Of a stretch of 61,071 nt of DNA, positions 39,673 to 41,117 are shown piece by piece. This DNA comes from a virus. Lineage: Duplodnaviria > Heunggongvirae > Uroviricota > Caudoviricetes. Position 1 is the stretch's first letter, and every line of letters begins with the position of its first letter. The position numbers and the translations under genes were made by a program. The stretch covers positions 1-61,071 of the IMG/VR virus record IMGVR_UViG_2778261463_000006. One strand, 5' to 3'. Under the pieces are notes generated by a model, which had not been told where the DNA came from, did no database searches, and was given only the letters and a program-made list of their open reading frames with translations.

Positions 39673-40138
39673 TCAGGGTTTTCGTCATGGTTAGCGACTT
39701 TGCGGCGGTTTAGAAACTGACCATTAAAGTAAATGCAAACGATGATCTGATGATGGTAGCGGCCTAAGAAGCCAGATGCCACGGGGTATGAGTCGTCCCC
39801 CGTCAAAAAATCGACCGCAGAGTGTCCCCGTCTGTGTATTAGGGAACGGGGAGGCACAACAGGTAAGGGCGCTGGTGTGATTAACCAGATGAACGAGAAG
39901 GGGCCATCTGTTGGTCAGCGTCCTTTCCTGTTGCGTCTTCTTTTCAGCGTAACAGCGGTGCTTAACAGCACTTTGGGTACAGTTCCACGAATTTACGGGT
40001 ATATCCCGTCATGCTGAAAGCGCTAATCACGCTGGAAGCCAGGGTTATGCATCCCCTGTTACCGAATTGCAACCAGGGCGCGGTGCGCCGAAAAGCATAC
40101 GGAGGTGGAAGCCCTCGCCGGAGACGTACCCGGCAAGT

Positions 40139-40213
40139 GATGGTGTAGCTCAGCGGTAGAGCAGTTGGCTGTTAACCAACTGGTCGGTGGTTCGAATCCA
40201 CCCACCATCGCCA
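40139..40213 (+). tRNA. tRNA-Asn (anticodon GTT)
   Basis: Cloverleaf folded by hand: acceptor GATGGTG/CACCATC, anticodon loop CTGTTAA, T-loop TTCGAAT, 3' CCA encoded. Confidence 0.85.
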
Positions 40214-40218
40214 ATTTA

Positions 40219-40305
40219 GGGGAGTTAGTCCGTAGAGGTAGCGGGGGAGACTGTAAATCTACTGTCATTGCGACTCGGGTGGTTCGACTCCATCACTCCC
40301 CACCA
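40219..40305 (+). tRNA. tRNA-Tyr-like (anticodon GTA, type II with long variable arm; one G-A mismatch in anticodon stem)
   Basis: Acceptor GGGGAGT/ACTCCCC perfect; anticodon arm GGAGA-CTGTAAA-TCTAC; variable arm GTC-ATTGC-GAC; resembles E. coli tRNA-Tyr as recalled. Confidence 0.65.
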
Positions 40306-40309
40306 AATT

Positions 40310-40385
40310 GCCGGTTTAGCTCAGTTGGTAGAGTGCCTGCCTTGTAAGCAGGATGTCAGCGGTTCGAGTCCGTTAACCGGCACCA
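40310..40385 (+). tRNA. tRNA-Thr (anticodon TGT)
   Basis: Acceptor GCCGGTT/AACCGGC, anticodon arm CCTGC-CTTGTAA-GCAGG, T-loop TTCGAGT, CCA encoded. Confidence 0.85.
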
Positions 40386-40391
40386 ACACAA

Positions 40392-40958
40392 CAGGTAAGG
40401 GTATTTTGCGACGTCGGAGATCGCCGTGCTTGGCAGAGGGTTCGAATCCCTACGAAGTACCCTTACCGTTGTGATGAAGTGCAGCTCTTTGAAGCAACCA
40501 GAAGATAAGCATCTGGCTTCACAACATAAACCGCAGGAACGACCAATAAACGGTAGTCCGTATGGAGAACACCCCGTTGAGGAAGAGGCCTGGCCGGAAC
40601 CGTAACCGGCACTACAACGTTGAGAACACTGGCGTAACGGGGTCATATCCCAATCTATGAATAAATGTTGCGTTGCAGCGTGACAACCAGTGTTCTCAAC
40701 ATTGTGGTGAATGCACAGGCTGATGTGCCGCAACTACAGTAGTGCGCGCTTTGCGGGGCTTGCTACAACCCTGTGTCGGAGTTCAGCACCGACCATCACA
40801 GTTTGATTCTCTGGCATGAGCATAACGCTGAAATAAGTCCAGTCTGGTGCGGCCCGATCACCCGCCGTTAGCTCCACGAAACGGAGCACGTAACAGGTAA
40901 GAGCATTCTCCTGTAACGGGTTCATATCCCAATCTACAGGTCCACCAAGAATGCTCTT
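40392..40958 (+). repeat. Family of degenerate tRNA-like/hairpin elements (three copies here, one more at 39858-39937)
   Basis: Each starts ACAGGTAAG(G/A)G and closes with a 10-16-bp outer stem; inner T-arm-like hairpins GGGTTCGAATCCC or GGG(G/T)TCATATCCC. Confidence 0.45.
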
Positions 40959-41117
40959 TCCGTTGCGGTGAATGCGGCTAAGCGCACGCGGGGAAATGGT
41001 TATATCAGTACATTCATTTCTCCTTGTTTCCCCGTCCACGGTGGATAACCAGCCAAAGGACACCGGGAGGCACCCGGCACCGCAGCTTTTTTATTCGTTA
41101 AATAATGGAGTGAGAGG

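What the first reader, a model, noticed from the sequence alone, without database searches (positions are those of the whole stretch)
39858..40970. Family of degenerate tRNA-like hairpin elements flanking the tRNA cluster
At least four elements (about 39858-39937, 40392-40456, 40620-40703, 40903-40958) begin with ACAGGTAAG(G/A)G or have a 13-bp outer stem, and each encloses a T-arm-like hairpin (GGGTTCGAATCCC once; GGG(G/T)TCATATCCC at 40637 and 40916; CGGGTATATCCCG at 39995). They lie in ~1 kb of non-coding DNA between dmt and upl, interleaved with three intact tRNAs. They may be decayed tRNA genes, RNA processing signals or structured small RNAs; no CDS explains them.
Basis: seen in the sequence. 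Interest (0 to 1): 0.55.

Follow-up and report, generated by a model that had tools for sequence, protein, structure and literature searches.

The report
Conserved RNase III hairpins in phage leaders
The four "tRNA-like" hairpins around the P1 tRNA cluster belong to a large, uncatalogued family of RNA stem-loops also found in phage lambda and many enterobacterial prophages, and they most likely serve as RNase III cutting points that chop a long non-coding transcript into tRNAs and small RNAs.

Summary
Four long hairpins (E1 39857-39933, E2 40388-40472, E3 40613-40706, E4 40890-40966) lie on the + strand in the untranslated leader of the P1-type ban operon. A covariance model built from other phages finds exactly these four in 61 kb.

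They are not decayed tRNAs. They belong to a family ("H1") with a near-invariant 19-bp stem, ACAAC-A-GGUAAGAGCAUUG...CAGUGCUCUUUCC-GUUGUG. The stem carries a bulged A, a U.U mismatch and a U.G wobble. It encloses a hypervariable apical "cargo" of 9-125 nt, in at least 56 unrelated families.

Members occur in lambda (right after tR'), lambdoid Q-to-holin leaders, P22-like and P1-like phages, and only in Enterobacterales. They are always co-oriented with neighbouring tRNAs and often start 1 nt after the CCA end. Compensatory and G.U-preserving changes support an RNA helix on the transcribed strand.

A homologue in E. coli K-12 Qin sits where published work places the RNase III-made 5' end of the 190-nt DicF precursor. 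Best explanation, at about 0.6: RNase III excision sites that separate tRNA and sRNA modules.

T-arm mimicry is real for some cargos, E2 included, and is enriched over chance. The P1 plp and upl ORFs over E2-E4 look spurious. No Rfam family and no paper was found for the hairpin.

The parts
39857..39933 (+). E1, a member of the H1 hairpin family. Arms are ACAACAGGUAAGGGCGCUG and CAGCGUCCUUUCCUGUUG. The apical part is 41 nt with no T-arm. Predicted RNase III cuts lie near 39868|39869 and 39923|39924; this is inferred from the Qin homologue, to within a few nt.
   Evidence: RNAfold -37.9 kcal/mol, z -5.2. R1 model 31.9 bits, E 5.7e-6, and not in the training set. Conserved in P1, P7, D6, SJ46 and Ro157c2.
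40388..40472 (+). E2, an H1 hairpin that starts 2-3 nt after the CCA end of tRNA-Thr. The stem variant is GGUAAGGGUA/UACCCUUACC. The cargo holds an anticodon-arm-like hairpin (40408-40424, GCGAC-GUCGGAG-AUCGC) and a canonical T-arm (40437-40451). Predicted cuts lie near 40400|40401 and 40462|40463 (inferred).
   Evidence: RNAfold -37.8 kcal/mol, z -4.7. R1 62.2 bits. The same cargo family occurs in Enterobacter phage BUCT554 and other viral contigs with the common stem.
40613..40706 (+). E3, a divergent H1 hairpin. The stem GUUGAGAACACUGG/CCAGUGUUCUCAAC differs from the consensus by compensatory changes and has no bulge. It keeps the ACAAC...UUGUGGUGAAUGC frame. The cargo is 56 nt with a GGGGUCAUAUCCC hairpin. 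Predicted cuts lie near 40625|40626 and 40696|40697 (inferred).
   Evidence: RNAfold -39.3 kcal/mol, z -5.9. R1 34.7 bits, E 1.1e-6, and not in the training set. Conserved in P1-like loci.
40890..40966 (+). E4, an H1 hairpin with the consensus stem GGUAAGAGCAUUC/GAAUGCUCUUUCC. The cargo is 40 nt with a GGGUUCAUAUCCC hairpin. Predicted cuts lie near 40902|40903 and 40956|40957 (inferred).
   Evidence: RNAfold -32.7 kcal/mol, z -7.7. R1 66.5 bits, E 1e-14.
40139..40385 (+). Cluster of three intact tRNAs: Asn GTT 40139-40213, Tyr GTA 40219-40305, Thr TGT 40310-40385. E1 lies upstream of the cluster and E2 directly downstream.
   Evidence: ARAGORN. Rfam tRNA scores 75.5, 35.1 and 72.5 bits.
40964..41084 (+). 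STnc100/PasD-like sRNA module directly after E4. Its closing helix is UGCGGUG...CACCGCA, followed by a U-tract. It corresponds to the second conserved domain ('H2') that follows H1 in many lambdoid phages.
   Evidence: Rfam STnc100 38.3 bits, below the gathering score of 47, E 4.8e-6. Downstream-flank comparison. The link between PasD and STnc100 comes from bioRxiv 10.64898/2026.05.13.724894.
39530..39676 (+). Promoter-proximal leader module. It is homologous to the 5' part of the 190-nt DicF precursor of Qin (P1's annotated 'dicF-like region'). It ends in an intrinsic terminator at 39644-39676.
   Evidence: P1 annotation, alignment to Qin, terminator scan.
39452..39483 (.). C1 operator Oban and the Pban promoter region. 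This is the start of the rightward transcript that runs through E1-E4 to ban.
   Evidence: Inverted repeat I3. Homology to the P1 features Obanab and P1ban/P2ban.
40356..41063 (-). The ORFs that P1 annotates as plp (40356-40733) and upl (40734-41063). They overlap E2-E4 and the 3' end of tRNA-Thr, and are most likely not genes.
   Evidence: The reading frames are split between frames in close relatives that are about 95-99% identical at the DNA level. No Pfam match. The P7 and Ro157c2 records do not annotate them.

Best explanation
E1-E4 are four copies of a conserved RNA stem-loop family, called H1 here. They are transcribed as part of the long untranslated leader of the C1-controlled ban operon, in this order: Pban, DicF-precursor-like module, E1, tRNA Asn-Tyr-Thr, E2, E3, E4, STnc100-like sRNA, accessory ORFs, trnI, ban.

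Each copy folds into a stem of about 19-23 bp. The base helix is ACAAC/GUUGUG. Above it come a bulged A, then a purine-rich 5' arm paired with a pyrimidine-rich 3' arm. The stem is capped by a variable apical module.

Host RNase III most likely cleaves both arms about 12 bp above the base of the stem. This excises the apical hairpin and separates the flanking modules. The tRNA precursor and the small-RNA precursors can then be finished by RNase P, RNase E and exonucleases.

What is shown and what is inferred:
- Shown here: family membership, RNA-level helix conservation, strand, genomic context and distribution.
- Shown by others for one homologue: RNase III dependence of the end that falls in the stem.
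- Inferred: that the P1 copies are cleaved, where they are cleaved, and that cleavage is what they are selected for.
For: 1. The family is real.
- Model R1, built from 59 of them, finds only E1-E4 in the window.
- It finds 3-5 copies at the same place in P1, P7, D6, SJ46 and Ro157c2.

2. The helix is conserved as RNA on the + strand.
- 93-94% of cells are paired, against 35-68% when the partner column is slid.
- 12 of 19 pairs change on both sides.
- 93 cells are compensatory, against 25 +/- 4 in shuffles, with 0 of 500 shuffles as high.
- One-sided changes are nearly all C>U or A>G and so give G.U pairs. A U.G wobble is conserved.
- The + strand scores 32-67 bits and the minus strand 19-30 bits.

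3. The context fits a processing signal.
- 158 of 158 tRNA-H1 pairs within 1.5 kb are co-oriented.
- In 13 cases the stem starts 1 nt after the CCA end.
- Other copies sit right after tR'-type terminators, as in lambda itself, or directly before tRNAs or the STnc100-like domain.

4. The stem alone can be the functional unit. Natural copies with a 9-nt loop exist.

5. There is an experimental link.
- R1 hits K-12 Qin at 1,649,170-1,649,266, at 33.4 bits and E 9e-7. This copy is homologous in both arms and in part of the cargo to phage copies.
- The 190-nt DicF precursor has an RNase III-dependent 5' end. It is absent in delta-rnc and was mapped by primer extension (Faubladier 1990; bioRxiv 10.1101/2023.04.14.536235).
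- Counting 190 nt back from the dicF 3' end lands at 1,649,245, or up to 5 nt further if the U-tail is counted. That is inside the 3' arm at 1,649,238-1,649,257.
Against: - There are no RNA-end data for P1 or lambda at these sites.
- The Qin cleavage position was placed by transcript length, not by reading the published gel. Only the 3'-arm cut is documented.
- RNase III cuts almost any helix of about 20 bp, so cleavage could be incidental rather than the selected function.
- RNase III does not need near-invariant sequence. The conserved bulged A, the U.U mismatch (52 of 59 copies) and the purine/pyrimidine arm asymmetry hint at an additional sequence-specific partner.
- Cargo families are discrete and are re-used in many contexts. 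That is more than a functionless loop would predict.
- T-loop-like hairpins are enriched in cargos, in 7 of 56 families against 0.16 expected.
Confidence: 0.6

Rival explanations
1. The invariant stem is a scaffold, or launch pad, and the variable apical modules are the functional products. These would be small structured RNAs, some mimicking tRNA T-arms and anticodon arms, that act in trans as decoys, sponges or enzyme ligands. This reading is compatible with RNase III excision as the release step.
For: - There are 56 discrete cargo families. Each is well conserved and re-used in up to 5 upstream and 7 downstream contexts.
- T-loop-like hairpins are enriched: 7 of 56 families against 0.16 expected, with a maximum of 2 in 500 shuffles.
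- The E2 cargo has an anticodon-arm-like hairpin plus a T-arm, and one relative shows a pair-restoring change in it.
- Cargo substitutions keep G.U pairs, as in the lambda-type cargo.
Against: - Copies with only a 9-nt loop exist, so cargo is dispensable for whatever the stem does.
- Most cargos share no motif.
- No discrete apical RNA has been reported.
- GGA/CsrA-type motifs are not enriched.
- No covariation test within a cargo family was possible because there is too little variation.
Confidence: 0.2
2. The conserved arms matter at the DNA level. They would be short homologous 'linker' sequences, or sites for a site-specific system (attC-like folded hairpins), that let phages exchange tRNA, sRNA and moron modules. 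On this view the RNA hairpin is a by-product.
For: - Upstream flank, cargo and downstream flank reassort freely. One upstream context occurs with up to 8 cargo families and one downstream context with up to 5.
- The same hairpin is found in lambdoid, P22-like and P1-like genomes that share little else.
- From memory: the layout resembles integron attC sites, with a conserved base box ending in AAC/GTT, an extrahelical base, an imperfect spacer and a variable terminal structure.
Against: - Substitutions are biased towards G.U pairs on the transcribed strand, and a U.G wobble is conserved. On the other strand these would be A.C mismatches.
- The elements are strictly co-oriented with transcription and with tRNAs, 158 of 158.
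- Crossovers occur on both sides of the cargo. An attC-type mechanism would exchange at one end only.
- No recombinase is consistently adjacent.
- The base box GTTGTGG does not fit the attC consensus GTTRRRY.
Confidence: 0.1
3. They are decayed tRNA genes, that is, pseudogenes left by turnover of the tRNA cluster.
For: - E2 contains a canonical T-arm and an anticodon-arm-like hairpin.
- T-arm-like hairpins recur in cargos.
- The elements lie next to tRNAs.
Against: - The conserved part is the outer stem, which has no tRNA counterpart.
- The Rfam tRNA model at E<=10 and relaxed ARAGORN find nothing on the + strand.
- 76 of 133 family members have no tRNA within 1.5 kb.
- Most cargos are unrelated to tRNA.
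Confidence: 0.03
4. The 3' arm UGCUCUUU acts as a boxA-like Nus-factor site that protects the long untranslated transcript from Rho termination.
For: - From memory: the consensus 3' arm begins with the rrn boxA core UGCUCUUU.
- The U that makes the conserved U.U mismatch is part of that core.
- Long untranslated leaders need protection from Rho.
Against: - The motif is buried in a stable helix.
- E1 (GCGUCCUUU), E2 (UACCCUUA), E3 (UGUUCUCA) and many other variants lose it while keeping the helix.
Confidence: 0.04
5. The region encodes the proteins Plp and Upl on the minus strand, as annotated in P1, and the hairpins are coincidental.
For: ORFs of 125 and 109 codons are open in this window and are annotated in NC_005856.
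Against: - The frames are broken into 2-3 frames in close relatives, and upl is already broken between this window and P1.
- plp has a TTG start and overlaps tRNA-Thr in antisense.
- There is no Pfam match.
- The P7 and Ro157c2 records do not annotate them.
Confidence: 0.02

Closest known systems
RNase III processing site upstream of dicF in the Qin dicBF operon of E. coli K-12 (Faubladier, Cam & Bouche 1990; Vanderpool-lab preprint 10.1101/2023.04.14.536235)
   Same: It is a homologous hairpin: R1 33.4 bits, the same base helix, a bulge and a mismatch at the same positions, and arms and part of the cargo shared with phage copies. It lies in a prophage polycistronic transcript just upstream of an sRNA. 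The next module downstream is homologous to the P1 leader module.
   Different: The published work describes a single cleavage site in one operon. It does not describe a hairpin family. The P1 copies flank tRNAs and an STnc100-like RNA rather than DicF, and nobody has mapped cleavage in them.
Classical phage and rRNA RNase III sites: T7 early-region R sites, the lambda N-leader and sib, and the 16S/23S processing stalks (from memory)
   Same: These are stem-loops of about 20 bp with internal mismatches in long polycistronic or non-coding transcripts. Cleavage there separates functional RNAs.
   Different: Those sites are idiosyncratic in sequence. H1 is one sequence-conserved stem re-used across unrelated phage lineages. 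It has a hypervariable apical insert and reassorting flanks.
STnc100 (Rfam RF02076) and PasD prophage sRNAs
   Same: They occupy the same genomic niche, 3' of PR'/Q or in moron leaders. The STnc100-like domain directly follows H1 here and in many lambdoids.
   Different: It is a separate RNA domain downstream of the hairpin. H1 itself matches no Rfam family.
Integron attC sites (from memory)
   Same: Both are imperfect hairpins of about 60-140 nt. Both have conserved base boxes ending in AAC...GTT, an extrahelical base, and a variable terminal structure.
   Different: The evidence points to an RNA-level constraint on the transcribed strand. No integrase is present. Exchange occurs on both sides of the loop. 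The base box departs from the RYYYAAC/GTTRRRY consensus.
Repetitive hairpin elements that act in transcripts: REP/BIME, ERIC, and Neisseria Correia elements cleaved by RNase III (from memory)
   Same: These are dispersed, conserved inverted-repeat elements that fold in mRNA and affect processing or stability.
   Different: Those families share a common core and are chromosomal or MITE-like. H1 copies share only the arms, carry unrelated cores, and are confined to phage or prophage leader regions.
Bacterial Y RNAs (YrlA): a long stem plus a tRNA-like domain (from memory)
   Same: E2 has a long terminal stem that encloses T-arm-like and anticodon-arm-like hairpins.
   Different: No Rfam Y-RNA hit appears at E<=10. 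Most H1 cargos are not tRNA-like. E. coli lacks the Ro partner (from memory).

Membership tests
H1 hairpin family (defined here; model R1) | Base helix ACAAC...GUUGUG, then a 13-bp helix of a purine-rich 5' arm with a pyrimidine-rich 3' arm. The whole scores significantly with the covariance model. | tested here: met
   E4 66.5, E2 62.2, E3 34.7 and E1 31.9 bits. These are the only + strand hits in 61 kb with filters off.
H1 hairpin family (defined here; model R1) | Lies on the transcribed strand, co-oriented with neighbouring tRNAs and genes. | tested here: met
   All four are on the + strand with the tRNAs and ban. Family-wide, 158 of 158 pairs are co-oriented.
H1 hairpin family (defined here; model R1) | The helix is maintained by compensatory or G.U-preserving changes while the apical part varies. 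| tested here: met
   The E2 and E3 stems differ from the consensus by paired changes.
RNase III processing stem-loop | An intramolecular dsRNA helix of about 20 bp or more. | tested here: met
   Predicted stems of 16-20 bp continue into further pairing, at -33 to -39 kcal/mol.
RNase III processing stem-loop | rnc-dependent cleavage inside the helix with 2-nt 3' overhangs. | not testable with these tools
   This is shown only for the Qin homologue, for one strand, in the literature. There are no data for P1 or lambda.
RNase III processing stem-loop | Base-pair preferences and antideterminants around the cut (proximal, middle and distal boxes). | not tested
   The preference table of Altuvia 2018 is a figure or supplement that is not held.
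tRNA gene or pseudogene | A cloverleaf detectable by a tRNA model. | tested here: not met
   The Rfam tRNA model at E<=10 gives no hit in E1-E4. ARAGORN at 80% and 60% thresholds and in mt mode gives no + strand call.
tRNA gene or pseudogene | A T-arm: a 4-5-bp stem with a UUCRANN loop. | tested here: inconclusive
   It is present in E2 only (40437-40451). E3 and E4 have GGGKUCAUAUCCC, which lacks the conserved A. E1 has none.
Rfam STnc100 (applies to the flank 40964-41084, not to the hairpins) | A score at or above the gathering threshold. | tested here: not met
   38.3 bits against a gathering score of 47, and only model positions 31-147 are matched. It is a relative, not a certified member.
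Integron attC | R''/R' boxes RYYYAAC/GTTRRRY (consensus from memory), with an integron integrase or attI nearby. | tested here: not met
   The boxes here are (G)CACAAC/GTTGTGG, which depart from the consensus. No integrase appears in the annotated neighbourhoods.
Nus-factor boxA | A conserved single-stranded GCUCUU(U)A motif. | tested here: not met
   The core is present only in consensus-type arms such as E4. It is lost in E1-E3 and other variants, and it is always base-paired.
Protein-coding genes plp and upl | A reading frame conserved among relatives. | tested here: not met
   Frame breaks occur in relatives, and there is no Pfam family.
MITE or REP-like repeat | Copies share a common core between the terminal inverted repeats. 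| tested here: not met
   There are 56 unrelated core families among 133 copies.

The most novel reading that the evidence does not exclude
H1 is a modular RNA 'expression cassette' shared by enterobacterial temperate phages. In this reading, an invariant basal stem recognised by RNase III, in the manner of a pri-miRNA, releases a diversified repertoire of 40-75-nt apical RNAs that reassort horizontally. Some of these RNAs are mimics of tRNA T-arms and anticodon arms, and they act in trans, for example as decoys for tRNA-binding enzymes or for tRNA-directed defence nucleases. The conserved arms double as recombination joints that shuffle this repertoire.
Probability: 0.15. Interest if true: 0.85.

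Novelty: new variant of a known kind. Interest (0 to 1): 0.6.

Why it matters
If the model is right, lambda and P1, the two best-studied temperate coliphages, carry an unrecognised RNA element, as do hundreds of prophages of pathogenic E. coli, Klebsiella and Salmonella. That element would organise the maturation of phage tRNAs and of prophage sRNAs such as DicF and the STnc100/PasD-type RNAs.

It would also matter in four further ways:
- It would explain how long untranslated 'moron' leaders are cut into functional pieces.
- It gives a search handle (model R1) for finding sRNA and tRNA modules in prophages.
- It would remove two doubtful genes, plp and upl, from P1-family annotation.
- It raises the question of why one stem sequence is kept nearly invariant while its apical insert is among the most variable short segments in these genomes.

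Tried and rejected
- Decayed tRNAs. Rejected: the Rfam tRNA model and relaxed ARAGORN find nothing.
- Any Rfam family for the hairpin. None at E<=10 in the window, and none at gathering threshold in 16 lambdoid loci.
- Literature search by sequence strings of both arms. Only unrelated primer hits came back. Keyword searches on lambdoid late leaders, P1 transcriptomes and RNase III gave no description of the hairpin.
- CsrA sponge. Rejected: GGA and ANGGA are not enriched in 39464-41100, with 20 observed against 24.9 +/- 3.8 expected.
- boxA/Nus site. The core 8-mer is present only in consensus-type arms and is always paired. Rejected as a family feature.
- Intact tRNAs as cargo. A scan for 5' arm, tRNA, 3' arm found none. 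Arm-to-arm spacing clusters at 30-70 nt.
- attC-like or MITE-like DNA element. Disfavoured by the strand-specific G.U pattern and the unrelated cores.
- Coding potential of plp and upl. Rejected.
- Exact RNase III site coordinates in K-12 from Altuvia 2018. The supplement is not held.
- Genome-wide pattern scan. Many hits outside Enterobacterales proved to be either chance matches with no R1 score or exact lambda sequence on tiny contigs, which indicates contamination.
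Full report
**Context.** The window is a P1-like phage (Punavirus). The region 39450-41150 is 94-97% identical to P1, RCS47, Ro157c2YLVW and relatives. In the P1 record it lies between dmt and ban, downstream of the C1-controlled promoters P1ban and P2ban and the operator Oban. It therefore belongs to the rightward ban-operon leader. ARAGORN and Rfam find intact tRNA-Asn, tRNA-Tyr and tRNA-Thr at 40139-40385, and the tRNA-Ile2 (CAT) gene at 42190.

**The observation.** The four elements are real, strong hairpins:
- E1 39857-39933
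- E2 40388-40472
- E3 40613-40706
- E4 40890-40966

Their fold energies are -33 to -39 kcal/mol, with z-scores of -4.7 to -7.7 against dinucleotide shuffles. The + strand always folds better than the minus strand. The shared 5' motif, the shared inner motif of E3 and E4, and the shared 3' flank are confirmed.

**A large family.**
- Distant BLAST of 40386-40975 showed that pieces of this "non-coding" stretch recur in unrelated temperate phages of Klebsiella, Salmonella, Enterobacter, Citrobacter and Cronobacter, almost always in unannotated DNA.
- In lambdoid phages the matches lie between the Q antiterminator and the holin gene, often next to tRNA clusters.
- Reading these loci revealed hairpins with the same arms as E2 and E4 but unrelated interiors.
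- The consensus is (C)ACAAC-A-GGUAAGAGCAUUG, then a variable part, then CAGUGCUCUUUCC-GUUGUG(GUGAAUGC).
- Phage lambda itself carries a copy about 8 nt after the U-tract of tR', the 6S RNA terminator, between Q and S.

**Structure and strand.** On an alignment of 59 distinct copies, the 19-pair stem is paired in 93.4% of cells, against 35-68% when the partner column is slid. The stem has a bulged A at column 10, a U.U mismatch in 52 of 59 copies and a U.G wobble in 42 of 59. One-sided substitutions are nearly all C>U or A>G, so they give G.U pairs. These would be A.C mismatches on the other strand, which argues for an RNA helix on the + strand.

Model R1, built from this alignment, finds E4, E2, E3 and E1 as the only significant + strand hits in the 61-kb window. 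The scores are 66.5, 62.2, 34.7 and 31.9 bits, and the minus-strand echoes score 19-30 bits. E1- and E3-type sequences were not in the training set.

Searching the fetched loci recovered divergent stems that differ by paired changes. Examples are GAUAAUGGCA/UGCCAUUAUC, GAUGAGAGCA/UGCUCUCUUC, the E3 type GUUGAGAACA/UGUUCUCAAC, and UGAAAGCGCA/UGCGCUUCCA. On that alignment, which was fitted to the model, 12 of 19 pairs change on both sides. There are 93 compensatory cells against 25 +/- 4 in shuffles, with 0 of 500 shuffles as high.

**The apical cargo.** Cargo length runs from 9 to 125 nt, mostly 37-56 nt. Among 133 copies there are 90 distinct cargos in 56 unrelated families.
- Copies with only a 9-nt loop exist in P1-like phages, including D6. 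The stem can therefore stand alone.
- T-loop-like hairpins (UUCRANN closed by at least 3 bp) occur in 7 of 56 families, against 0.16 expected.
- The E2 cargo combines an anticodon-arm-like hairpin (a 7-nt loop with U at position 2 and a purine at position 6) with a canonical T-arm.
- Even so, neither the Rfam tRNA model at E<=10 nor relaxed ARAGORN calls a tRNA in any element. No copy encloses an intact tRNA.

**Context and distribution.**
- All 158 tRNA-H1 pairs within 1.5 kb are co-oriented. In 13 cases the stem starts 1 nt after the CCA end. 76 of 133 copies have no tRNA nearby.
- Other copies directly follow PR'-tR' terminators, small conserved hairpins, or precede tRNAs.
- Downstream, many copies are followed by a second conserved domain: GGUGAAUGC, a variable part, then GCCGGAGAUCAGCACCGGCCACC. 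Its closing helix overlaps the H1 base.
- In the window this second domain is the sub-threshold STnc100 match at 40964-41084. STnc100 and PasD are related prophage Hfq-binding sRNAs found near Q. The site 3' of PR' is a known hotspot for morons and sRNAs.
- P1, P7, D6, SJ46 and Ro157c2 keep 3-5 copies at the same place while cargos and intervening modules change.
- In one representative genome per species, true members (56-77 bits) occur almost only in Enterobacterales. The exceptions are single copies on a 4.2-kb Martelella contig and in a Geobacteraceae MAG, which may be contamination. Hits in other phyla were either chance pattern matches or exact lambda sequence on small contigs, which indicates contamination.
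- Flanks and cargos reassort. One cargo family is seen with up to 5 upstream and 7 downstream contexts. One upstream context is seen with up to 8 cargo families.

**Functional link.** R1 hits E. coli K-12 Qin at 1,649,170-1,649,266, between ydfC and dicF, at 33.4 bits and E 9e-7. This copy shares both arms and part of its cargo with phage copies that sit in arrays with canonical H1.

Published work shows that a 190-nt DicF precursor has an RNase III-dependent 5' end. The species disappears in delta-rnc, and primer extension maps the end. The same work suggests that RNase III processing may stabilise the upstream ydfABC fragment (citing Faubladier et al. 1990).

Counting 190 nt back from the annotated dicF 3' end gives 1,649,245. 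Counting the U-tail moves it up to 5 nt downstream. Either position lies inside the 3' arm of the hairpin, 1,649,238-1,649,257. The stretch just downstream of the Qin hairpin is homologous to the promoter-proximal module of the P1 leader, P1's "dicF-like region".

By alignment, the equivalent cuts in the consensus would be GGUAAGA|GCA on the 5' arm and UGCUC|UUUCC on the 3' arm. For E1-E4 this predicts cuts near 39868/39923, 40400/40462, 40625/40696 and 40902/40956. These positions are inferred, not shown.

**Model.** The ban leader is transcribed as one long untranslated RNA. A simple scan found no sigma-70 promoter-like site in 39400-42600 and one intrinsic terminator at 39644-39676. This scan is insensitive: it also missed the annotated Pban promoters.

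Each H1 hairpin folds locally. RNase III then excises its upper part, which separates these pieces:
- the DicF-precursor-like 5' module;
- the tRNA precursor (E1 to E2);
- two intervening modules;
- the STnc100-like RNA after E4.

A stable hairpin that begins right after the CCA end would otherwise block 3' exonucleolytic trimming of tRNA-Thr. That last step rests on general knowledge of E. coli tRNA maturation.

**What remains unexplained.** The near-invariance of the stem sequence, including its bulge and mismatch, is more than RNase III is known to require. So are the discreteness and re-use of cargo families and the enrichment of T-loop mimics. A sequence-specific partner, or trans-acting apical RNAs, is therefore not excluded.

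**Annotation.** The minus-strand ORFs that P1 annotates as plp and upl cover E2-E4 and the 3' end of tRNA-Thr. Their frames are broken in close relatives, including between this window and P1 for upl. They have no Pfam match, and the P7 and Ro157c2 records do not annotate them. They are most likely artefacts of ORF calling across palindromic RNA elements.

**Novelty.** No Rfam 15 family matches the hairpin. No paper in the searchable library contains either arm sequence in a relevant context. One member, the Qin copy, has been known since 1990 as an RNase III site, but not as part of a family. I therefore file this as a new variant of a known kind: phage RNase III processing stem-loops. It differs from the classical sites in being one conserved, horizontally shared stem with a hypervariable insert.

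Noticed in passing
window 40964-41084 (+): An STnc100/PasD-like sRNA module lies directly after E4. Its closing helix UGCGGUG/CACCGCA is compensatory to the Rfam consensus and is followed by a U-tract. It scores below the gathering threshold (38.3 against 47 bits). The same position in many lambdoid phages holds a GGUGAAUGC...GCCGGAGAUCAGCACCGGCCACC domain with a variable middle.
   Followed up: partly
window 39530-39676 (+): The promoter-proximal leader is homologous to the 5' part of the 190-nt DicF precursor of Qin, but the DicF sRNA itself is replaced. The module ends in an intrinsic terminator at 39644-39676, which transcription towards ban must read through.
   Followed up: partly
window 40356-40733 (-) and 40734-41063 (-): The ORFs annotated in P1 as plp (a putative lipoprotein) and upl are not conserved as reading frames in close relatives. 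They overlap RNA hairpins and tRNA-Thr, so they are probably spurious gene calls carried through P1-family annotations.
   Followed up: yes
window 40219-40305 (+): A tRNA-Tyr(GTA) with a long variable arm is inserted between tRNA-Asn and tRNA-Thr. It is absent from P1 proper but present in Ro157c2YLVW and several viral contigs. Its Rfam tRNA score is weak (35 bits), with a mismatch in the anticodon stem.
   Followed up: no
L136, L138, L158, L161, L164, L176, L177, L185, L186, L196, L198 (genome contigs): An exact phage-lambda hairpin (69.0 bits, 89 nt) sits on short, low-coverage contigs assigned to Pseudomonas, Psychrobacter, Algoriphagus, Tardiphaga, Oceanobacillus, Neobacillus, Segatella and others. 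This is most likely lambda control-DNA contamination of public assemblies.
   Followed up: partly
L129:5157-5227 (-), i.e. NC_000913.3 about 1,641,156-1,641,226: A weak second H1-like hairpin (19.9 bits, E 0.002) lies in the Qin late leader between cspB and essQ. It has the typical 3' flank GUGGUGAAGUGCA and may be a decayed copy.
   Followed up: no
window 40813-40889 (+): The stretch upstream of E4, including the small hairpin GCUCC-ACGAAAC-GGAGC, is conserved at 82-84% identity in Klebsiella and Cronobacter lambdoid phages. There it precedes H1 in the same way, which suggests a larger conserved RNA unit.
   Followed up: no
window 39946-40138 (+): The spacer between E1 and tRNA-Asn contains ACGGGUAUAUCCCGU and ...GCCGAAAAGCAUACGGAGGUGGAAGCCCUCGCCGGA... 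Similar sequences recur upstream of H1 copies in lambdoid contigs (L008, L075, L118). This looks like another shared non-coding module of unknown role.
   Followed up: no
L004, L016, L024 (Klebsiella P1-like phage-plasmids): This H1 variant lacks the bulged A and has an almost perfectly palindromic stem, so both strands match the arm pattern. It starts immediately after the CCA end of tRNA-Asn.
   Followed up: no
window 41118-42162 (+): The tciA-tciB-tciC genes of P1 are replaced here by two other ORFs of 78 and 275 aa. The second is annotated as a putative serine protease in Ro157c2YLVW. Homology with P1 ends at 41084, just after the STnc100-like module.
   Followed up: no
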